A stretch of 49,541 nt of DNA from Candidatus Parcubacteria bacterium (GCA_003599635.1 QZIX01000014.1:1-49541); one strand, 5' to 3'; shown: positions 15,016-24,637, counted from the first letter of the stretch. The notes: generated by a model not told the origin, from the letters alone. A program made the numbers and translations.

Positions 15016-16749
15016 ATGTTGTCACAAAATCAGCTTGAAGAAATCTTAATTAAGGAAAAGGTTCTGTCTCAAAATGAGCTGGATCTTAACCTTAAAGAAT
15101 CTGTCAAGGAAAACCTCGGGCTTGAGGAATATTTAAAATTAAAAAAACTCGCCTCGGAAGACGAAATTTACAAAGCCGCTGCCAAACACTTTAATGTTCC
15201 TTTTGTGGAACTAAAGAATTTAAACATCCGAAAGGATATTCTGTTTCTTATACCCGAACCTCTGGCGCAGACTCATAAGATTATTGCTTTTGATAAAGAT
15301 GAAAAAGTTTTGAAAATTGCCGCCCTGGATCCGCAGGACCTTGAAATTTTTGAATTTTTAAGAAAAAAAACGGATCTGTCCATAATGATTCACCTGACAA
15401 CGCCGGAAAACATCAAGGAAGTATTAAAACAGTACCACAAAGGGCTTAAAGCCGAATTTAAAGATCTGACCAAAGAAGACAGTCAGAAAACTAACGCCAA
15501 AACCGGCGAAAAATTAAAAGAACTGGCTCAAGACCTGCCTGTAATCAGAATAGTTGATACCCTTCTGGAATATGCAATTTTTGAAAATGCTTCCGATATA
15601 CATATCGAACCGCTGGAAAAGGAAGTCAATGTAAGATACAGGATTGACGGTTTACTAAAAAATGTCATGACCTTACCTAAATCTGTTCATGCCGGGGTTA
15701 TTGCCAGAATCAAGATTTTATCACGGCTGAAACTCGACGAACACAGGCTGCCGCAGGACGGCCGCTTCAAAGTCGTCAATCCTGAATATAAAGTTTCTTT
15801 CCGGGTATCTATCGTTCCAACCTTTGACGGCGAAAAAGCCGTGCTCCGCCTGCTAAATGAAAAGAGCCAGCTGCTGACTTTGGAACAACTTGGTTTGCAG
15901 TCAAAAGCGTTTGAAATAATCAAAAGAAATATCGCCAAGCCGCACGGTATGATTTTGGTAACCGGACCGACCGGCTCAGGAAAAACGACCACTCTTTATA
16001 CGATCTTAAATATCTTAAACCAGCCCGAGGTCAACATCTGCACAATTGAGGATCCGATTGAATACAGAATGATAAATGTCAATCAAAGTCAGGTGAATCC
16101 GAAAATCGGCTTTACTTTCGCCTCCGGCCTCAGGGCGTTTTTGCGCCAGGATCCCGATATTATCATGGTCGGCGAAATACGCGACAATGAAACTGCCGAA
16201 ATTGCCATCCATGCTGCCATGACCGGCCATCTTGTGCTTTCCACCCTGCACACAAACGACGCTGTAACCACACTGCCACGCTTAAGCGACATGGGTGTTC
16301 CTTCTTTTCTGCTCGGAACCACAACTAATGTGATTATTGCCCAGCGCCTGGTCAGGAAAATCTGCACCGAATGCATCGAAAGCTATAGTCTGGACAAAGA
16401 AGCGGTAAAGCAGCTGGAAAAACAGGTGGACATTGAAAAAATCATGCACAAGCTGGAAAAAGAAAAGATAATCATCCCTGGAAAGCAGACAATAGGTAAT
16501 ATGCTTTTTTATCGCGGCAAGGGCTGCCGCCGCTGCAACAATGAAGGCTATAAAGGCAGAATCGGAATTTATGAAGTTTTGGAAATGACGGAAAACATCA
16601 TCGGCTTGATTTTGAAAAACGCACCAGAAGACAAACTTCGTGAAGCGGCGTCTGAACAAGGAATGTTAAGCATTATCGACGACGGCTTTATCAAAGCCAA
16701 AAACGGAATAACGACTCTGGAAGAAGTTCTGCGGGTAACCAAAGAATAG
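15016..16749 (+). CDS. pilB: Type IV pilus assembly ATPase (PilB/GspE)
   Basis: ASDIHIEP, RLPQDGRF, GPTGSGKTTTLY, TIEDPIEY, LRQDPDIIMVGEIRD, TGHLVLSTLHTN, Zn motif CTEC...GKGCRRC. Confidence 0.95.
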   Translation: MLSQNQLEEILIKEKVLSQNELDLNLKESVKENLGLEEYLKLKKLASEDEIYKAAAKHFNVPFVELKNLNIRKDILFLIPEPLAQTHKIIAFDKDEKVLKIAALDPQDLEIFEFLRKKTDLSIMIHLTTPENIKEVLKQYHKGLKAEFKDLTKEDSQKTNAKTGEKLKELAQDLPVIRIVDTLLEYAIFENASDIHIEPLEKEVNVRYRIDGLLKNVMTLPKSVHAGVIARIKILSRLKLDEHRLPQDGRFKVVNPEYKVSFRVSIVPTFDGEKAVLRLLNEKSQLLTLEQLGLQSKAFEIIKRNIAKPHGMILVTGPTGSGKTTTLYTILNILNQPEVNICTIEDPIEYRMINVNQSQVNPKIGFTFASGLRAFLRQDPDIIMVGEIRDNETAEIAIHAAMTGHLVLSTLHTNDAVTTLPRLSDMGVPSFLLGTTTNVIIAQRLVRKICTECIESYSLDKEAVKQLEKQVDIEKIMHKLEKEKIIIPGKQTIGNMLFYRGKGCRRCNNEGYKGRIGIYEVLEMTENIIGLILKNAPEDKLREAASEQGMLSIIDDGFIKAKNGITTLEEVLRVTKE

Positions 16750-16759
16750 CAAAATAAAA

Positions 16760-17842
16760 ATGAAAAAAATCTGGGAAAAAATAAAAAATTTTGTAATTAA
16801 ATATCAGGGCGTACCTGCTTCCCAAAAAATCTTTTTCGTCCAGCAGCTGGGGGTAATGATAAGAACCGGCATTTCTCTTTCCGCCGCTTTAACCACGCTC
16901 AACAAACAGGCCAGCAGCGGCAAGTTCAAGCGCATTTTAACTGATGTTAAGGAAGAAGTGGAAAAAGGCAATCTTTTATCCAAAGGGCTGGAAAGGTATT
17001 CCAAAATTTTCGGTGAACTTTTTATTAATATGATAAAAGCCGGGGAAACATCCGGAAAACTTGAGGAAGTTTTGAAACAGCTGTACATACAGATGAAAAA
17101 AGATCACGAAATAATGGGTAAAGTCAAAGGCGCGTTAATTTACCCTTCAATTGTCATTGTTATGATGTGCGTGATAGGTATATTGATGATGATCTATGTA
17201 ATCCCCAGCATCACCGGAATTTTCGAAGAAGTCAACGCGCAGTTGCCGCTGATGACCAGGATTTTGATCAGCATCAGCAAATTTATAACTCATAACGGCA
17301 TTTTAACGGCATCAGCTGCCGTTCTTTTAATTACGGGGTTCGTCAGATTTATCACCTGGCCCAAGGGCAAATTCCAATTTCATAAATTACTGCTTAAGAC
17401 GCCGATTGCCGGCAAAATAATAGTAAAGGTGAACCTGGCCCGTTTATGCCGGACACTTAGTTCCCTGCTAAAGACGGACATCCCTATAGTGCAGACTTTT
17501 TCGATTACCTCGCAGGTTTTAGGCAACATGATTTATCGGCAGGCGTTAGAAAAAGCCAAAGAACAGATAAAAAAGGGGGTCAGTATAGAAGAATGCCTGA
17601 ATGGCTATCCCAAACTTTTTCCTCCGGTATTTTTACAAATGGTCGCTGTCGGTGAAGATACCGGATCACTGGATGACATTTTGGAAGAATCGGCCATTTT
17701 TTACGAAGATGAGGTCAGCCAAACTATGAGCAATCTTCCTTCCATAATTGAACCGGTATTGATGGTAATTTTAGGTATCGGCGTTGCAGCCATGGCTGTG
17801 GCGGTCATAATGCCGATGTACAGCTTGTCACAAACACTATAA
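16760..17842 (+). CDS. pilC: Type IV pilus platform protein (PilC/GspF)
   Basis: Two T2SSF-like halves, MIKAGETSGKLEE, ALIYP, QMVAVGEDTGSLD, IIEPVLMV..G..V....AVIMPMY. Confidence 0.93.
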   Translation: MKKIWEKIKNFVIKYQGVPASQKIFFVQQLGVMIRTGISLSAALTTLNKQASSGKFKRILTDVKEEVEKGNLLSKGLERYSKIFGELFINMIKAGETSGKLEEVLKQLYIQMKKDHEIMGKVKGALIYPSIVIVMMCVIGILMMIYVIPSITGIFEEVNAQLPLMTRILISISKFITHNGILTASAAVLLITGFVRFITWPKGKFQFHKLLLKTPIAGKIIVKVNLARLCRTLSSLLKTDIPIVQTFSITSQVLGNMIYRQALEKAKEQIKKGVSIEECLNGYPKLFPPVFLQMVAVGEDTGSLDDILEESAIFYEDEVSQTMSNLPSIIEPVLMVILGIGVAAMAVAVIMPMYSLSQTL

Positions 17843-17846
17843 AAAT

Positions 17847-20069
17847 ATGAACAAAAAAGGCATCTCTCTGGTAGAAACCTTAATATCATTGTCCGTCCTG
17901 GCGGTTTTAAGTGTAAGTATTTTTTCACTTTTTCAGCTGGCGCTAAGGGTGATAGCCGAAAATAAGGCCAGAACCGGGGCTGTTTCATTAGCCAACGAAA
18001 AAATGGAAATTGTAAGAAATCTGGCATATGAAAATATCTGCATAATCGGCGGCGTGGTTACCTGCCCTGACGGAATTGCCGGCTTGCAGCAAAGCGAATC
18101 GGTTAACGACAATAACATCAACTACGACGTCACAACTCAGGTACAATGCGTTTTCGACGCTTTCGACGGACTGCTTCCCCCGGCTGACAATGAACCCTGC
18201 GATTACAAAAGAGTCAGCATAACTGTTTTTTGGATAGGACACACCGGCCAGAAAAATTTGGCAATGGAAACGGCAGTCGCCCCGAAAGGACTGGAAACCT
18301 CAAGCGGCGGTGTTTTAAAAATTTCAGTTTTTGATGCCGGAGGAAATACGGTGCCTCAGGCAGACGTCCATATCGTAAAATCGCCAATTGACACGACATT
18401 ATTGACGGGAGATGACGGAGTTTTGCTGATTGCCAATCTTGAAGAGGCCTTAAACTCCTATTCAATCAGCGCCACAAAAACCGGTTTTAGCACCGACCAG
18501 ACCTGCGCCATTAACGCCGGCGCGGCAGATTGTGTTTTAGGCAATCCGAATCCTCTAAAGCCCCATGCCACTGTTCTGGACGGACAAGTTACGGAAATCA
18601 GCTTTGCCATTGATATTTTATCCAATCTGCAGTTCAGGACTGTCAGCCAGACAACGCCGGATGTATGGCAGGTCAATACTGGAGGAGACGGCGAAGATCA
18701 GGATAATCCGTCAATTGCCATTTGTCCCGGCGGCGATTATGTGTTCGGCTGGCGAGATGATGACATCGGCCAAAGCAAATTATACAGCCAAAGATATGAC
18801 AGCGACAGAATAAAACTCTGGAATGACGGAGATAAAGCCATAGCCACCGCCTCGCACCAGAACAATGTCGATTTAGCGACTGACTCACTTTGCAATTCTT
18901 ACGCTGTCTGGAATGACGACCGAGACAGCCAGGGCAATGAAGATGCGTATTTTATAAGCTATGATGAAAACGGCAACCTGCTGTGGGGCTCTGAGAAAAA
19001 AATTGAAACTCAAGCTGACAACAAAGACCAGAATTTTCCGAAAATCGAACTGAATTCGACTTCGACTTTCGCCTTCATTGTCTGGCAGGATAACAGAAAT
19101 GATAACGGCGATATCTTCATAAATAAATTCAATATCGTTTCCAATCCTCCGGTAGCTTTATGGTCGCCGGAAATAAAAGTGAATGAAACTTCCGGAAGCA
19201 GCACCCAGATACTGCCGGCTTTGGCAGTCGATTCGCAGAACAATGCTTACGTTGTCTGGCAGGACGGCAAAAATCTAAACAATGACATTTACTCTCAAAA
19301 AATTTCCGGGGAGGGGGTAAAGCTTTGGCCGTCTGACATTAAAATTAACACTGACTTGGGGCTTAGCGATCAAATCAATGCCGATATAGATTTAGGGCCG
19401 TCAGACAACATCTACGTTGTCTGGCAGGATGACAGAAACGGCAATTACGATATTTATCTGCAAAAATACAGTCCGGCCGGCGCCGCTTTATGGGAAAATG
19501 ACATTAAAGTTAATTCCGATTCAGGCAGCGCTGCAGACGAATATCCGGCGATTGCCATAAACAACTTGGAAGAAATATTTATCGTCTGGCAGGATTACAG
19601 AAACAGCAAAGCCGATATTTATCTGCAAAAACTAAACAGTGACGGCGTAAAACTTCTTGATTATGACGTTTTAGTAGCTGAAGCCACAGGCGATCAGGAA
19701 AAGCCGGATATTGCCATACCGCCGCCGCCGAGCACGCAGAATCCTACAATTACCTGGCAGGACAATTCCAACGGCGACTGGGACATTAAAGCGGCGCAAT
19801 ACGGCGCAACAATTGAAACCGGTATTGCGGTTCCCAATGTTCCCCTAACCATCACCGGCAGCAAAAGTTACGATGTCGAGGGAAATATCCCTAAATTCAG
19901 CTTAAGCTCTCAAACTGACGGTTCGGGCATCTTAAATGCCAATCTGATAGAATGGGACACTTACGATGTGATTGTCGGGGGAAGCTACAGTCTGATTTCC
20001 TCCGATCCCGTTGTTCCTTTTTTGCTTGAACCCAATCAAAATTTAACTGTTTATTTAAATGTCGAATAA
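17847..20069 (+). CDS. Large minor pilin (PilV-like N-terminus) with internal 7-repeat beta-propeller-like module
   Basis: Class III signal KKG|ISLVE plus hydrophobic helix; Ig/carboxypeptidase-regulatory-like segments flank seven W-x-D repeats. Confidence 0.85.
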   Translation: MNKKGISLVETLISLSVLAVLSVSIFSLFQLALRVIAENKARTGAVSLANEKMEIVRNLAYENICIIGGVVTCPDGIAGLQQSESVNDNNINYDVTTQVQCVFDAFDGLLPPADNEPCDYKRVSITVFWIGHTGQKNLAMETAVAPKGLETSSGGVLKISVFDAGGNTVPQADVHIVKSPIDTTLLTGDDGVLLIANLEEALNSYSISATKTGFSTDQTCAINAGAADCVLGNPNPLKPHATVLDGQVTEISFAIDILSNLQFRTVSQTTPDVWQVNTGGDGEDQDNPSIAICPGGDYVFGWRDDDIGQSKLYSQRYDSDRIKLWNDGDKAIATASHQNNVDLATDSLCNSYAVWNDDRDSQGNEDAYFISYDENGNLLWGSEKKIETQADNKDQNFPKIELNSTSTFAFIVWQDNRNDNGDIFINKFNIVSNPPVALWSPEIKVNETSGSSTQILPALAVDSQNNAYVVWQDGKNLNNDIYSQKISGEGVKLWPSDIKINTDLGLSDQINADIDLGPSDNIYVVWQDDRNGNYDIYLQKYSPAGAALWENDIKVNSDSGSAADEYPAIAINNLEEIFIVWQDYRNSKADIYLQKLNSDGVKLLDYDVLVAEATGDQEKPDIAIPPPPSTQNPTITWQDNSNGDWDIKAAQYGATIETGIAVPNVPLTITGSKSYDVEGNIPKFSLSSQTDGSGILNANLIEWDTYDVIVGGSYSLISSDPVVPFLLEPNQNLTVYLNVE
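18660..19806 (+). repeat. Seven intragenic 53-58 aa repeats (consensus approx. P.IA.D..N..YVVWQD.RNGN.DIY.QK....G..LW..DIKVN)
   Basis: Trp codons of the WxD motif at 18750, 18909, 19083, 19257, 19422, 19587, 19755 (spacings 53, 58, 58, 55, 55, 56 codons). Confidence 0.9.
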
Positions 20070-20679
20070 AAAAAGCAACAACCGCGGCTATACTTTGGCC
20101 GAAGTAATCGTTGCCATTTCTATTTTTTCCGTGGCCATAACTGTTGTTTCCTCCTATATAATTATGGGCTACAAAACAAATCGCTTTGCCGAAGAGCAAA
20201 ATGACGCCATTGAACATGCCAGAAACGGCATTGAAACTATGGTCAAGGAAATCAGAGAAGCCGGCACCGGCAAAAACGGCGATTATCCGATTGTCCAAGC
20301 GCTTGATCAGTCTTTTTCTTTTTACAGCGATATCGACTTGGATGAAGAAACGGAAAAAGTCAGATATTATCTTGATGATACCAATTTAAAAAAAAGCATC
20401 ACTGAACCATCAGGTTTTCCCGCGGAATATTTAACGGAAAACGAAACCGTGAACATTCTTTCCAGGTATGTCAGAAACGACACGCTGCCGATCTTTTACT
20501 ATTATAATAAGGACTGGCCGAATGACACGGTAAACAATCCCTTGTCCACCCCGGCATCGCCAAATGATGTAAAAATCATCCGTCTTAATCTGGAAATTAA
20601 CATAAATCCAGCTATTGCGCCCGAACCATTTATTTTACAATCGTATACGCAGGTCAGGAATTTAAAAGAAAATCTTTAA
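20059..20679 (+). CDS. Minor pilin (PilW/PulJ-like)
   Basis: NRG|YTLAEVIVAISIF prepilin motif; E.MVKEIREA; RYYLD; 11-nt overlap with the upstream pilin. Confidence 0.85.
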   Translation: MSNKKSNNRGYTLAEVIVAISIFSVAITVVSSYIIMGYKTNRFAEEQNDAIEHARNGIETMVKEIREAGTGKNGDYPIVQALDQSFSFYSDIDLDEETEKVRYYLDDTNLKKSITEPSGFPAEYLTENETVNILSRYVRNDTLPIFYYYNKDWPNDTVNNPLSTPASPNDVKIIRLNLEININPAIAPEPFILQSYTQVRNLKENL

Positions 20680-20688
20680 AAAAAGCCA

Positions 20689-22218
20689 ATGCGTAAAATA
20701 TCAAAAAAACTGCTCTGTCCAAACTGTCAAGCTGAAGATAAAGGTGCTATACTGATAATGACTCTGGTTTTTACTTTTATTTTTGTGATAGTCGGCGGCG
20801 GTCTTGTTTCTTTGGTTAATCAGCAGCAAAAATTAAACCGAATCAAAAAAGCTCAGGCGCAGGCTTTGCATATCGCCGAATCAGGAGTTAATTATTACCG
20901 CTGGCATCTTGCCCACGACATCGACGATTACGGCGACGGCACCGGCGGGAATTGCGATTCAGTCACGCCCTGCGTGCACAGCTATCCGTCCGGTGACCCG
21001 ATAGGACAATTTTCACTTGAAATCATTCCACCTGCCACCGGATCAACGGTGGTTACGATAAAATCAACCGGCTGGATTAATGAATTTCCCAACTACAAAA
21101 GAATCGTGCTTGCCAAATACGGACGATCGGCTTTGACCAAATATGCGGTTGTCGCCAACAACAGTATGAGATTCGGCGAAGGTACGGTCATTCACGGCCC
21201 GGTTCACGCCAATGGCGGAATCAGGTTTGACGGTACAGCTTATAATGAGATTACTTCAGCCCAGGAATCCTATGATGACCCTGATCATGATGATCAGGGG
21301 GAAGAATTGGAAGAATTCGGCGTACACACACATTCGATTGACGGGAGCGGCCAGATGGATCCCCTGCCTCCGGCGGCAGTACCGAAACGGCTTGATGTTT
21401 TCGCCGGCGGCAGAAAATTTCCCGTACCGACGGTCGATTTCGACGCCATAACCTTAAATCTGTCCGAACTGGAAACAGCCGCCGAAGATAACGGACTTCA
21501 TCTCAATAAATCGAATCAGCGCGGCTGGCATATACAATTATTTGATAACGGAACTTTAAGATACAGCAAGGTAAAAACTGTAAACAACTGCGTTTATATG
21601 TCTGGCAGCGACTTAATAAGTGTTTCAGATGGTTTTCCCGCCGCTTACCAGGGAAACTGGACAACCGCTGATTATCCGGCAAACGGCATAATTTTTGCGG
21701 CCGACAATGTCTGGGTTGACGGAAAAATAAATGATGCCCATCTGACAATAGTGGCGGCGGAAGATCCGCTGGCTTCCGGTGATTCGGATATCTGGATCAA
21801 TAATGATATTGAATATACCAATTACGACGGCACAGACGCTGTCGGGCTGATAGCGCAAAATAACATCAACATCGGCCTGCGCAGCGAGGGTGATTTTCTT
21901 GGCACGGAAGATCTGACAGAACTCAGAATCGATGCTGCTTTGGTCGCTCAGAAAGGCAGAGTAGGACGATTTTATTATCCTGCTGACTGCTCGTCCGACT
22001 ATTATCAAAGAAACAAAATCACTGTTTTCGGCACAATTGCCACCAATCAAAGATATGGCTTTTCCTGGAATTGTGGCGGCACTTATTGCTCAGGTTATCA
22101 GGACAGACAAATTAATTTTGACAATTACCTTTCATTTACCCCGCCTCCCCTGTTTCCGACGGGAAACGTTTACGAATTCATATCCTGGGAGGAAATTTTA
22201 GAAGATGAAACTTACTAA
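20689..22218 (+). CDS. Minor pilin, PilX/GspK-like with large beta-rich C-terminal domain
   Basis: DKG|AILIMTLVF (no Glu5, as in PilX), QALHIAESGVNYY.W.L, GPVHANGGIRFDG, LIAQNNI, IDAALVAQKG, ending FISWEE. Confidence 0.8.
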   Translation: MRKISKKLLCPNCQAEDKGAILIMTLVFTFIFVIVGGGLVSLVNQQQKLNRIKKAQAQALHIAESGVNYYRWHLAHDIDDYGDGTGGNCDSVTPCVHSYPSGDPIGQFSLEIIPPATGSTVVTIKSTGWINEFPNYKRIVLAKYGRSALTKYAVVANNSMRFGEGTVIHGPVHANGGIRFDGTAYNEITSAQESYDDPDHDDQGEELEEFGVHTHSIDGSGQMDPLPPAAVPKRLDVFAGGRKFPVPTVDFDAITLNLSELETAAEDNGLHLNKSNQRGWHIQLFDNGTLRYSKVKTVNNCVYMSGSDLISVSDGFPAAYQGNWTTADYPANGIIFAADNVWVDGKINDAHLTIVAAEDPLASGDSDIWINNDIEYTNYDGTDAVGLIAQNNINIGLRSEGDFLGTEDLTELRIDAALVAQKGRVGRFYYPADCSSDYYQRNKITVFGTIATNQRYGFSWNCGGTYCSGYQDRQINFDNYLSFTPPPLFPTGNVYEFISWEEILEDETY

Positions 22219-22223
22219 AAATT

Positions 22224-23276
22224 ATGTTTTTTCCCCAACACAACGGAGCATTAGGACTTGATATTTCCGATTACGCTTTAAGAATAGTTGATCTGTCAAA
22301 AAAAAGAGGAAAACTTTACCTGTCTTCCTTTAATCAAATTAAAATTCCGACGGGCGATATATCCGAAGGCGTAATAAAGAATCCAGACAGGGTGGTTTTA
22401 CTCATCAACCAGCTGATTAGAGAAGCAAAAGGAAATAAAATATTAAAAAAAGAAGTGATTGCCGTTTTGCCTGAAACCAAAACATTTATCAAGCTTTTGG
22501 AAATCCCCAAAGTCGAGGAAGAAAAAATAGGTGAAGAAATCAAAAAAGAACTGAAAAACCATTTGCCGGTAAGCATTGAAGAACAATATCTGGACTGGCA
22601 GGTAATTTCTGCAGATGATGAAAAAACTTATATCCTGGCCGGTGTCGCCCCAAAAGACATAGTTAATTCACACCTTTCCCTGCTGCAGAAAGCCGATCTT
22701 TTGCCGCTGGCCTTTGAAATTGAAGCCGTTGCTATTTCCAGGGCTCTTATGGAAAATTCAAACGGTAAAATGATTATTGATATCGGGGCCGCCAGAACCG
22801 GTTTAATCATCCATGACCGTGACGTCGTCCAATTAACGGTAAGTTTGCCTATTTCAGGCGAAGCAATCACCAGAGAAATCTCGGACAGTCTTAATTTAGA
22901 ATATAAAGAAGCTGAAAAAGCCAAACTGGTCTGCGGGCTTGATAAAACCAGATGCAAAGGCGCTTTAAGGAAAATACTGTTTGACACAATGGATAATCTG
23001 ATAAAAGAAATAGATAAAGCCAAAAATTACTATGAAAATTTGTCAGAAAAAAACAAAATCTCCGAAATTGTTCTGTGCGGAGGCGGCGCTTATTTTCTTA
23101 AAATAGAAAAATATCTGTCTCACCGGCTCGATATGACGGTCAGTCTGGGCAACCCCTTGAAATTTATTGAAAAAGACAATTTAAAACAGCTTAAATTCCC
23201 GGAAGACAAATCGCTGACTTATACCACGGCCATCGGTTTGGCCATAAGAGGAACGCAAAAAAATCAACTTTTATGA
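22224..23276 (+). CDS. pilM: Type IV pilus assembly protein PilM
   Basis: LGLDISDYALR, YLDWQV, FEIEAVA..RAL, IIDIGAART, ISGEAIT, LCGGGA, LGNP, TTAIGLAIR (actin-like fold). Confidence 0.92.
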   Translation: MFFPQHNGALGLDISDYALRIVDLSKKRGKLYLSSFNQIKIPTGDISEGVIKNPDRVVLLINQLIREAKGNKILKKEVIAVLPETKTFIKLLEIPKVEEEKIGEEIKKELKNHLPVSIEEQYLDWQVISADDEKTYILAGVAPKDIVNSHLSLLQKADLLPLAFEIEAVAISRALMENSNGKMIIDIGAARTGLIIHDRDVVQLTVSLPISGEAITREISDSLNLEYKEAEKAKLVCGLDKTRCKGALRKILFDTMDNLIKEIDKAKNYYENLSEKNKISEIVLCGGGAYFLKIEKYLSHRLDMTVSLGNPLKFIEKDNLKQLKFPEDKSLTYTTAIGLAIRGTQKNQLL

Positions 23277-23797
23277 TAACATTAAATCTGCTGTCCCCGG
23301 AACAAAAAAAAGAAATACGGCTGCTGAGATTTTTTATTGTCACCAAAATCATCATCATCTATCTTTTACTGTTTTTGATTATTACGGCGATCGTACTTTT
23401 ATTCGCCAAAATGATACTGCAGAATTATTTTAACAAAGTCGTTGCCAACTACAATTTGAACAGTAAAACTGGAGCCCTTTTGAGCCAGGATATCAAACAA
23501 TTCAATAAAAAATTGAAATCCATACAATCTATTCAAAATGATTTTGTACCCTGGTCGGATTTAATTTTTAAAATCAATGAGATTGTCCCGGAAAACATAC
23601 TCCTTTACGCCATAGAAATAAAAAAAACCAGCGGTGATCTCCAGCTGACGGGGAGGGCAAAAACCAGGGACGACCTGAAAAATTTTGAAAAAAATTTAAA
23701 TGATTCGGGATTGTTTGAATCAATAAAAATTCCCTTTACCAGTCTGCTTGAAAAAGAAAATATAGATTTTAAAATAACATCAAGTCTAAAACGATGA
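23273..23797 (+). CDS. pilN: PilN-like protein
   Basis: MITLNLLSPE (INLLP-type motif), TM helix, coiled coil, LTGRA.TR..L..F...L; follows pilM with ATGA overlap. Confidence 0.8.
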   Translation: MITLNLLSPEQKKEIRLLRFFIVTKIIIIYLLLFLIITAIVLLFAKMILQNYFNKVVANYNLNSKTGALLSQDIKQFNKKLKSIQSIQNDFVPWSDLIFKINEIVPENILLYAIEIKKTSGDLQLTGRAKTRDDLKNFEKNLNDSGLFESIKIPFTSLLEKENIDFKITSSLKR

Positions 23798-24318
23798 ATA
23801 TAAAAAATAAATTCTTTCTCTACCTTTTCGCCTGTTTGGCGGTGTGTGCCGCCATCATCGGTTTTATTATTATACCGACCGTAAATGACATAAGAAAAAT
23901 AAGTTCCATGGTTACAGACGAAAGGGCTGATTTGGAAAAAAAATACAAAAAAGGCCAGTTGCTGCAAAAAACGATTAATGACTTCAATAAAATAAAGCCG
24001 TTTGAAGAAAGAATCAATTCCATATTTGTAAAAAAAGATCATGAACTTGATTTTATCCTGGAACTGGAAAAGATCGCGGCTGAAAATAAAGTTAACCAGA
24101 AGCTGATAAACCGGTCAGATCAGACAGCTAACGACACCCTGCCCCTGGAAGTGCAGGTCGAGGGTTACTTTCCCGACACGCTTAAATATTTAAGGCAGGT
24201 TGAAAAACTAAGCTATTATTTTAATGTCGAGGAAGTCAAGTTTTCTTCCGCGGGTCAAAAATATGACGGACAAATAAAAATGTTCTTATCAGGCAAAATA
24301 TTTATTGACGCCAACTAA
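23794..24318 (+). CDS. pilO: PilO-like protein
   Basis: N-terminal TM, coiled coil, ferredoxin-like tail V.G.F..TL.YL..VE.L; position after pilN. Confidence 0.72.
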   Translation: MNIKNKFFLYLFACLAVCAAIIGFIIIPTVNDIRKISSMVTDERADLEKKYKKGQLLQKTINDFNKIKPFEERINSIFVKKDHELDFILELEKIAAENKVNQKLINRSDQTANDTLPLEVQVEGYFPDTLKYLRQVEKLSYYFNVEEVKFSSAGQKYDGQIKMFLSGKIFIDAN

Positions 24319-24322
24319 AACA

Positions 24323-24637
24323 ATGAAAATAAAAACAATCCACATCAATTTAAACTGGCTGCTAAAGATTCTTTACCCTCTGCTGGCTTTGATTATTGTC
24401 GCCGGGATTGCTTATCTTTCTACCTTTTTGTACTTTGATTTTTACATGACAATTTCACAGGCAAAAGAAGTCCCTGTTCTAAAAACGCAGGTTACAGCCG
24501 ATGTCGTGGATGTAAAACTTTTTGAAAATATTATTAACCGCCTTGACGCAAAAAATAATGCGATCAGTTTTGAGAATATTATAAAAAATCCGTTTTCATT
24601 GCCTCCTGTTAACAGTGAAAAACCGAAATTTGAATAA
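24323..24637 (+). CDS. Hypothetical single-TM protein closing the pil operon (PilP-position)
   Basis: ATG 4 nt after the pilO stop (track start TTG 24305); TM helix; C-terminal KNPF motif. Confidence 0.6.
   Translation: MKIKTIHINLNWLLKILYPLLALIIVAGIAYLSTFLYFDFYMTISQAKEVPVLKTQVTADVVDVKLFENIINRLDAKNNAISFENIIKNPFSLPPVNSEKPKFE

What the first reader, a model, noticed from the sequence alone, without database searches (positions are those of the whole stretch)
17847..20069. Minor pilin with a seven-bladed beta-propeller-like adhesin module spliced into it
Seen: a prepilin motif, then about 380 aa of seven regular WQD.RN..DIY.QK repeats inserted between ...SFAID.LS.L..RTV and VPNVPLTITGSK...EWDTY, segments I recall as nearly adjacent in shorter CPR homologs. 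Loops are Asp/Asn-rich (DDRDSQGNED, DDRNGNYD). Known: PilY1/PilC tip adhesins use Ca-binding beta-propellers, and CPR epibionts use type IV pili for host contact. No pilY1 is in this cluster. Inference: a pilin-fused propeller replaces the tip adhesin and may set host specificity as a swappable cassette.
Basis: partly seen in the sequence, partly recalled or inferred. Interest (0 to 1): 0.72.

Follow-up and report, generated by a model that had tools for sequence, protein, structure and literature searches.

The report
Pilus minor pilin carrying a propeller
A small-genome (CPR/Patescibacteria-type) bacterium encodes a pilus subunit with a seven-bladed propeller domain inserted into its stalk, most likely a binding head shown at the pilus tip; this is a new variant of a known design, not a new kind of system.

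Summary
ORF 17847-20069 (+) encodes a 740-aa prepilin: leader MNKKG, Glu at +5, a long alpha-1 helix and a 4-stranded head. It sits in a PilB-PilC-[this gene]-pilin-PilX-like-PilM-PilN-PilO operon. Residues about 263-660 hold seven 53-58-aa repeats. AlphaFold2 models them confidently as one compact domain (pTM 0.92). Foldseek's best match is the seven-bladed propeller of CylK (TM 0.74); the other top hits are also propellers, several of them seven-bladed by my recollection. The propeller lies between two prealbumin-like stalk domains. In short homologs those two domains are joined by only 12-16 residues, so "inserted" is right. In 20 relatives with identical gene order, the same slot holds the propeller form (11), a propeller interrupted by a further insert (5), or non-propeller modules (4: DUF2341, DUF2341+BNR, other, or none). 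Module exchange is therefore real but rare and old; it is not a fast-swapping cassette. No PilY1 was found in the genome. Adhesin function, calcium binding and host specificity remain untested inference. Two precedents exist: modular pilins (S. sanguinis PilB/PilC), and the Saccharibacteria PilX2 minor pilin, whose heptabladed propeller binds host cell wall. Verdict: a new variant of a known kind, of moderate interest.

The parts
15016..16749 (+). PilB-type assembly ATPase (577 aa)
   Evidence: Pfam T2SSE E 5e-132 and MshEN
16760..17842 (+). PilC platform protein (360 aa)
   Evidence: Pfam T2SSF E 3e-56. Its stop codon lies 4 nt before the pilin start.
17847..18296 (+). Pilin module of the 740-aa protein (aa 1-150): leader MNKKG, cleavage after Gly5, Glu at +5, alpha-1 helix aa 8-58, 4-stranded head aa 83-144
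   Evidence: Sequence. N_methyl 18.7 bits, below cut-off. Weak ComGE/PilV matches. AF2 secondary structure.
18297..18632 (+). Stalk domain 1 (aa 151-262), prealbumin/CarboxypepD_reg-like beta-sandwich, ending in SFAID..S.L
   Evidence: PF13620 at aa 159-223, E 4e-4, below cut-off here but above it in orthologs. AF2 models it as all-beta.
18633..19826 (+). Inserted seven-bladed beta-propeller (aa 263-660). W-x-D anchors at aa 302, 355, 413, 471, 526, 581, 637. The N-terminal strand at aa 273-275 probably completes blade 7.
   Evidence: TIGR04275 E 1e-15. AF2 on the domain alone: pLDDT 90.9, pTM 0.92. Foldseek CylK 7roo TMq 0.74, E 3e-14. Profile versus PDB: CylK E 1e-7.
19827..20069 (+). Stalk domain 2 (aa 661-740) and stop codon. 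Starts NVPLTITGSK and contains EWDTY.
   Evidence: Aligns with the second Ig-like domain of short homologs. AF2 models it as all-beta, aa 666-739.
20059..20679 (+). 206-aa minor pilin (GspJ/PilW/ComGF-like). Overlaps the end of the 740-aa gene by 11 nt.
   Evidence: N_methyl E 1e-6; weak XpsI/GspJ/ComGF matches. Syntenic in all 20 relatives.
20689..22218 (+). 509-aa PilX/GspK/ComGG-like large minor pilin without Glu at +5 (KG|AILIM)
   Evidence: Weak PilX_N and ComGG matches. Sequence. Syntenic in relatives.
22224..24318 (+). PilM (22224-23276), PilN (23273-23797) and PilO-like (23794-24318) alignment proteins
   Evidence: PilM_2 E 5e-41, PilN E 1e-7, PilO E 2e-3

Best explanation
The gene encodes a modular minor pilin of a type IV pilus. 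A small PilV/GspI-like pilin module (class III signal peptide, Glu5, alpha-1 helix, 4-stranded head) is followed by two prealbumin-like stalk domains. A seven-bladed SBBP/TIGR04275-type propeller is inserted into the linker between those stalk domains. The proposed mechanism is inferred. The prepilin is cleaved after Gly5. With the two co-transcribed minor pilins (206 aa, J-like; 509 aa, K/PilX-like and lacking Glu5) it forms the priming complex on PilC/PilMNO. PilB then polymerises a major pilin encoded elsewhere underneath that complex, so the trio ends up at the pilus tip. Both chain ends of the propeller lie in blade 7, on the bottom face. The top face (B-C hairpins W-x-D-x-R-N-G-N-x-D and the blade-connecting loops) therefore points away from the stalk. 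That face would serve as a ligand-binding surface, most likely for cell-surface glycans of a host or partner cell. Shown: the gene, the operon, the repeats, the predicted fold, the insertion site and the module variation among syntenic orthologs. Inferred: tip location, binding function and ligand class.
For: The operon is PilB-PilC-pilin-pilin-PilX-like-PilMNO, and this order is conserved in all 20 relatives examined. The full-length AF2 model has pLDDT 85.9 and shows a pilin fold, two beta-sandwiches and the propeller. The propeller modelled alone gives pTM 0.92. Foldseek hits are all propellers: CylK seven-bladed TMq 0.74; GH145, PL42 and the CV39L lectin 0.62-0.67. CylK also matches by profile at E 1e-7. 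Its propeller is described as seven-bladed (PMC8916777). The insertion border was mapped against short homologs. Long-form orthologs carry an extra module in the blade 3-4 connecting loop, which lies on the top face. The same propeller family occurs in thousands of proteins. Those in the annotated list carry surface-protein domains such as T9SS sorting, FlgD-Ig and PKD. Precedents: the TM7x PilX2 propeller minor pilin is needed for host binding and binds host cell-wall material (PMC11623550; 10.64898/2026.10.06.756255). Modular pilins are proposed to be tip-located adhesins (PMC8179133).
Against: There are no functional data for this protein or its family. The PilV/GspI, J and K assignments rest on sub-threshold matches and gene order. 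None of the three shows sequence similarity to a solved minor pilin. No prepilin peptidase (PF01478) and no PilT-sized ATPase were found in the assembly, though it is only 79.7% complete. Conserved propeller residues all sit at repeat positions, so they may be purely structural rather than forming a binding site. The model coordinates could not be inspected, so ring closure and face orientation are inferred from fold matches and strand order.
Confidence: 0.62

Rival explanations
1. The propeller is an enzyme carried on the pilus, such as a polysaccharide lyase or glycosidase that cuts host wall glycans, rather than a passive binder.
For: Many Foldseek hits are propeller enzymes: GH145, PL24/PL25 ulvan lyases, PL42 rhamnose-glucuronate lyase, sialidases and CylK.
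Against: Sequence identity to those enzymes is only 9-16%. The fold is generic. Every position conserved at 80% or more among 29 orthologs lies at a repeated motif position, and no blade-specific cluster suggests a single active site. CylK's active site needs its N-terminal domain, which is absent here.
Confidence: 0.1
2. The protein is not a pilus subunit. The pilin-like N-terminus only anchors or exports a surface receptor, as in archaeal bindosome proteins, and the propeller works at the cell surface.
For: No prepilin peptidase was found in the assembly. The bulky 75-kDa extension is unusual for a filament subunit. The N_methyl score is below the Pfam cut-off.
Against: The gene sits in strict synteny between PilC and two further minor pilins in 20 genomes. 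It has a canonical leader, Glu5 and a pilin head fold. Comparably large modular pilins are assembled into pili in S. sanguinis.
Confidence: 0.13
3. The propeller has mainly a structural or self-association role, for example pilus bundling, kin aggregation or acting as a spacer. In that case its acidic loops are structural calcium sites, not ligand sites.
For: Conservation is radially symmetric. The closest solved relative, CylK, has structural blade-bridging Ca2+ sites at each blade junction.
Against: Orthologs replace the propeller with lectin-like or sialidase-like modules (DUF2341, BNR_2) at the same site. This fits a ligand-recognition slot better than a spacer.
Confidence: 0.12

Closest known systems
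[quoted passage not shown]
   Same: Both are CPR type IV pilus minor pilins carrying a seven-bladed propeller, with no PilY1 involved. PilX2 is required for host binding, and its propeller binds host cell-wall polysaccharide and peptidoglycan.
   Different: The PilX2 propeller is described as RCC1-repeat type, C-terminal, and on a pilin without a predicted PilD signal. Here the propeller is SBBP/TIGR04275/CylK-like. It is nested between two prealbumin-like domains, on a PilV/GspI-like pilin with a canonical leader and Glu5. Direct sequence comparison with PilX2 was not done.
Modular type IV pilins (Streptococcus sanguinis PilB with vWA and PilC with a ConA-like lectin; InterPro catalogue of Raynaud et al. 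2021)
   Same: A small pilin module carries a grafted functional module, proposed to be tip-located and adhesive. The catalogue already lists CPR pilins with PF13620 domains.
   Different: The module here is a propeller that Pfam does not recognise. It is inserted inside a multi-domain stalk rather than appended by a short loop.
PilY1/PilC tip adhesins (PF05567 propeller)
   Same: A seven-bladed propeller presented at a type IV pilus tip through the core minor pilin complex.
   Different: PilY1 is not a pilin, and its propeller is a different family. PF05567 gives no match to this protein or this genome.
CylK C-terminal seven-bladed propeller (PDB 7RON/7ROO)
   Same: It is the best structural match (TMq 0.74, E 3e-14) and the only PDB match by sequence profile (E 1e-7). 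Both share the repeat core D-x-[YW]-L-x-K-[YF]-D-x-x-G-x-x-x-W.
   Different: CylK is a cytoplasmic alkylating enzyme whose active site lies at the interface with an N-terminal Ca-binding domain that is absent here.
IncI-plasmid PilV shufflon adhesins (e.g. TP114)
   Same: A PilV-type minor pilin whose variable distal part sets partner-cell specificity (abstract of PMC9045228).
   Different: There the variation comes from site-specific DNA inversion within one genome. Here alternative modules are fixed in different lineages.

Membership tests
Type IV (pre)pilin, class III signal peptide | Short basic leader ending in Gly, hydrophobic alpha-1N, Glu at +5 | tested here: met
   MNKKG|ISLVETLISLSVLAVL.... 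AF2 helix aa 8-58 followed by a 4-stranded sheet.
Type IV (pre)pilin, class III signal peptide | Pfam PF07963 N_methyl above the gathering score | tested here: inconclusive
   18.7 bits versus a 21.2 cut-off for this protein. Orthologs P0002, P0003 and others carry PF07963.
Type IV (pre)pilin, class III signal peptide | Processing by a prepilin peptidase (PilD, PF01478) | tested here: not met
   No PF01478 match in the 79.7%-complete assembly; the control search hit 12 of 14 genomes. Absence may reflect the missing 20%.
PilV/GspI-type core minor pilin | Match to TIGR02523 / TIGR01707 / ComGE models above cut-off | tested here: not met
   ComGE 24.1 bits versus 49; PilV 14.8 versus 52.2. The assignment rests on head size, Glu5 and gene order ahead of J-like and K-like pilins.
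Modular pilin (sensu Raynaud et al. 2021) | N-terminal pilin module plus at least one domain not specific to pilus biology | tested here: met
   Pilin module, two CarboxypepD_reg-like domains and a propeller.
Seven-bladed beta-propeller fold | Seven 4-stranded blades closed into a ring | tested here: met
   Seven repeats. AF2 pTM 0.92, with 3 long strands and 1 short strand per repeat. TMq 0.74 to seven-bladed CylK. This is a prediction only. Closure by N-terminal strand 273-275 is inferred, because the coordinates were not inspectable.
TIGR04275 beta_prop_Msarc repeat | Score above the curated cut-off (85 bits) | tested here: inconclusive
   57 bits, E 1e-15, 4 stretches. Related, but below the family cut-off.
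PilY1/PilC (PF05567) | PilY1-type C-terminal propeller | tested here: not met
   No PF05567 match to the protein or to the genome.
Calcium-binding propeller adhesin | Ca2+ coordination by loop Asp/Asn residues | not testable with these tools
   The loops are Asp/Asn-rich, and the nearest solved relative, CylK, has Ca2+ at each blade junction. The conserved hairpin is D-x-R-N-G-N-x-D, with an Arg and an N-G turn, and is not a canonical DxDxDG site.

The most novel reading that the evidence does not exclude
The linker between stalk domains 1 and 2 of this PilV-like pilin is a conserved docking site across a CPR class. Different recognition modules have been installed there: an SBBP-type propeller, a propeller with a nested Cys-rich/jelly-roll insert, DUF2341 (described as LamG-like from memory), and a BNR sialidase-like module. 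On this reading the module type tracks the host or partner surface glycan, making this gene the host-range determinant of these uncultured episymbionts. The propeller itself would be a seven-site multivalent lectin stabilised by CylK-like blade-bridging calcium.
Probability: 0.25. Interest if true: 0.65.

Novelty: new variant of a known kind. Interest (0 to 1): 0.45.

Why it matters
Most CPR/Patescibacteria are uncultured, and how they recognise hosts is known only for oral Saccharibacteria. This gene gives a concrete candidate recognition head for another large CPR group. Its closest named homologs are from Buchananbacteria, Falkowbacteria and Andersenbacteria. The domain borders are defined well enough to express the head alone. 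The finding also reveals one fixed insertion site where related lineages carry different modules. That makes it possible to test module type against host identity in metagenomes. It extends the 'modular pilin' idea to a domain nested inside a stalk, and in some relatives to a further domain nested inside that.

Tried and rejected
- PilY1 membership: PF05567 gives no match to the protein or the genome.
- Solenoid or open-repeat fold: rejected on AF2 pTM 0.92 and on every top fold match being a propeller.
- Single-active-site enzyme: no blade-specific conserved residues.
- Other copies in the genome: tblastn finds no other copy of the propeller or the stalk domains.
- Sequence searches of the pilin head, the 206-aa pilin and the 509-aa pilin against PDB found nothing useful.
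- Pfam found nothing for the alternative ~140-aa insert of class-3 homologs or for the Cys-rich nested insert.
- Homology between those two alternative inserts is only suggestive (E 0.018 over 34 aa).
- A literature search for TIGR04275 found no paper.
- No public sequencing run could be listed for the gene, so expression and environment are unknown.
- Earlier notes on this genome concern other loci.

Full report
**Observation.** The window carries a 740-aa ORF at exactly 17847-20069 on the + strand. It begins MNKKG|ISLVETLISLSVLAVL: a short basic leader ending in Gly, Glu at +5 of the mature chain, and a hydrophobic helix. Pfam N_methyl scores just below its cut-off (18.7 versus 21.2 bits), but close orthologs carry PF07963.

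The gene sits in a co-directional type IV pilus operon. The order is PilB (15016-16749), PilC (16760-17842), this gene, a 206-aa pilin (20059-20679, overlapping by 11 nt), a 509-aa PilX/ComGG-like pilin lacking Glu5 (20689-22218), then PilM, PilN and PilO (22224-24318).

Seven repeats are anchored on W-x-D at aa 302, 355, 413, 471, 526, 581 and 637, with a period of 53-58 aa. Blade-to-blade alignment scores average 46.5, against -16.7 +/- 10.8 for shuffled blades. NCBIfam TIGR04275 ("beta-propeller repeat") matches at E 1e-15, below its family cut-off.

**Fold.** AlphaFold2 with 29 full-length homologs gave mean pLDDT 85.9. The model has four parts:
- a helix at aa 8-58 plus a four-stranded head (aa 83-144), which is a pilin fold;
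- a beta-sandwich at about aa 155-267, with a weak PF13620 match;
- seven units of three long strands and one short strand at aa 273-651;
- a second beta-sandwich at aa 666-739.

The repeat region modelled alone (aa 262-662, 16 sequences) gave pLDDT 90.9 and pTM 0.92. Foldseek against PDB returned only propellers. The best is CylK (7roo) at E 3e-14, TM 0.74 normalised to the query, rmsd 4.5 Å. GH145 enzymes, a PL42 lyase and the CV39L lectin follow at 0.62-0.67. A sequence profile of the module also finds CylK, and only CylK, in PDB (E 1e-7). The shared blade core is D-x-[YW]-L-x-K-[YF]-D-x-x-G-x-x-x-W.

The CylK propeller is described as seven-bladed, with a Ca2+ site at each blade junction (PMC8916777). 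The segment VWQVNTGG at aa 272-279 matches the outer-strand motif (LW..[DE]IKVN) that ends each repeat. The chain therefore probably starts with the outer strand of blade 7, which is the usual velcro closure. Both chain ends would then lie side by side on the bottom face.

**Insertion.** Shorter homologs of about 440-460 aa (P0051, P0052, P0065, P0082) join ...SFAID..S.L... to ...[NG]V.F.L.G.K.IG... through 12-16 residues. In this protein about 395 residues lie between those points. A third class of about 570-585 aa (P0046, P0050, P0061) has an unrelated ~140-aa insert at the same point. Long forms of about 1085-1112 aa carry the propeller with a Cys-rich plus beta-rich insert in the loop between blades 3 and 4. 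The short forms have an extra C-terminal prealbumin-like domain that the propeller forms lack.

**Orthologs.** A search with the N-terminal 260 aa found a match in 34 of 41 genomes (40 relatives of the same order or class, plus the window's own). For the 20 best non-self hits, the flanks show the same order: PilB-PilC-[large pilin]-206-like pilin-509-like pilin-PilM. The slot holds:
- a 734-766-aa propeller form in 11 genomes;
- the 1081-1112-aa interrupted-propeller form in 5, all in one family and one clade with 99% support;
- non-propeller proteins in 4.

The four non-propeller proteins are 753 aa with DUF2341; 1526 aa with DUF2341, BNR_2 and fn3; 727 aa with the two stalk domains adjacent plus other sequence; and 435 aa with three CarboxypepD_reg domains.

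A tree of the shared N-terminal part needs about three changes between propeller and non-propeller states. Mean pairwise identity among 29 propeller-form homologs is 0.43 (pilin), 0.49 (stalk 1), 0.40 (propeller) and 0.43 (stalk 2). But module exchange is rare and old, and the propeller is not hypervariable.

**Distribution of the module.** An exhaustive search found 19,380 representative clusters at E <= 1e-3. They include many large multi-propeller proteins. In the annotated search, some of the non-pilin hits carry T9SS sorting, FlgD-Ig or PKD domains. This is a common extracellular propeller that was recruited into a pilin. The window's genome has no second copy.

**Function.** Nothing here tests function directly. 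Positions conserved at 80% or more among orthologs all fall at repeat positions: W0, D+2, R+4, D+9, I+10, Y+11, Q+13, G+19, W+23, D+26 and Q-17. There is no sign of one asymmetric active site. The pattern fits either structural conservation or seven equivalent sites.

The conserved hairpin D-x-R-N-G-N-x-D contains an Arg and an N-G turn and is not a canonical DxDxDG calcium loop. CylK-like calcium sites in the blade-connecting loops remain possible. PF05567 (PilY1) is absent from the genome (no positive control). PF01478 (prepilin peptidase) and any PilT-sized ATPase are also absent, but the assembly is only 79.7% complete.

The tip-adhesin reading rests on three things:
- the operon position ahead of J-like and K-like minor pilins;
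- the geometry, with the top face pointing away from the stalk and the nested insert of long forms sitting on that face;
- precedent.

**Precedent.** Raynaud et al. 2021 defined modular pilins and catalogued more than 1,200 of them, including CPR pilins with PF13620 (PMC8179133). In Nanosynbacter lyticus TM7x, the minor pilin PilX2 carries a C-terminal heptabladed propeller (RCC1 repeats) and is needed for host binding (PMC11623550). The isolated PilX2 domain binds host cell-wall polysaccharide and peptidoglycan (10.64898/2026.10.06.756255). The concept is therefore published.

What differs here is the propeller family (SBBP/TIGR04275/CylK-like), the pilin type (canonical prepilin with Glu5, PilV/GspI-like) and the nested topology at a recurrent insertion site. 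I found no description of this architecture in the searched library.

**Verdict.** This is a new variant of a known kind. Confidence is about 0.9 for the architecture and about 0.6 for the tip-adhesin function. Interest is moderate.

Noticed in passing
Own genome contig C11, locus L001:3146-13063: A second type IV pilus locus: PilB2, PilC2, pilins of 148, 173 and 163 aa, and a giant 1186-aa prepilin with no recognised module apart from one weak Asp-box. It also has a PilM fused to a C-terminal SH3_3 domain (492 aa). The genome therefore has two pilus systems, each with one giant modular pilin, as in TM7x.
   Followed up: partly
Own genome (G000), whole assembly; C6:44232-45413: No prepilin peptidase (PF01478) and no PilT-sized ATPase were found. 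There are three PilB-sized T2SSE ATPases (open frames 563-582 aa), the third on contig C6. The assembly is 79.7% complete, so absence is not proven.
   Followed up: partly
L033:3166-6504, L039-L042 (relatives G029, G025, G013, G017, G015); P0018, P0021: Long-form orthologs (1081-1112 aa) carry a ~390-aa insert in the loop between blades 3 and 4. It consists of a Cys-rich stretch with many C-x-W/C-x-x-C motifs, then a beta-rich ~140-aa unit. This is a domain nested in a domain that is itself nested in a stalk. Pfam finds nothing in it.
   Followed up: partly
P0026 (676 aa homolog): This homolog has only six W-x-D repeats (336-aa module), so blade number may vary between six and seven within the family, unless it is an assembly artefact.
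   Followed up: no
P0033 / P0150 / P0157 (about 1150 aa homologs): These homologs have about 400 aa of extra sequence, LamG/ConA-like by eye, inserted in the pilin head region ahead of stalk domain 1, in addition to the propeller.
   Followed up: no
window 24305-24637 (+): A 110-aa ORF with one predicted membrane helix directly follows PilO and overlaps it by 14 nt. It has no family match and could be a PilP-like or lineage-specific pilus component.
   Followed up: no
window 17840-17849 and 20059-20069: The pilus genes are tightly packed: 4 nt between the PilC stop and the pilin start, and an 11-nt overlap with the next pilin. This suggests translational coupling of the minor pilins.
   Followed up: no
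P0122, P0129, P0135, P0138, P0140: The same propeller repeat occurs in giant proteins of 2,000-4,500 aa with up to 11 matched stretches, so this module family is very widespread in metagenomes.
   Followed up: no
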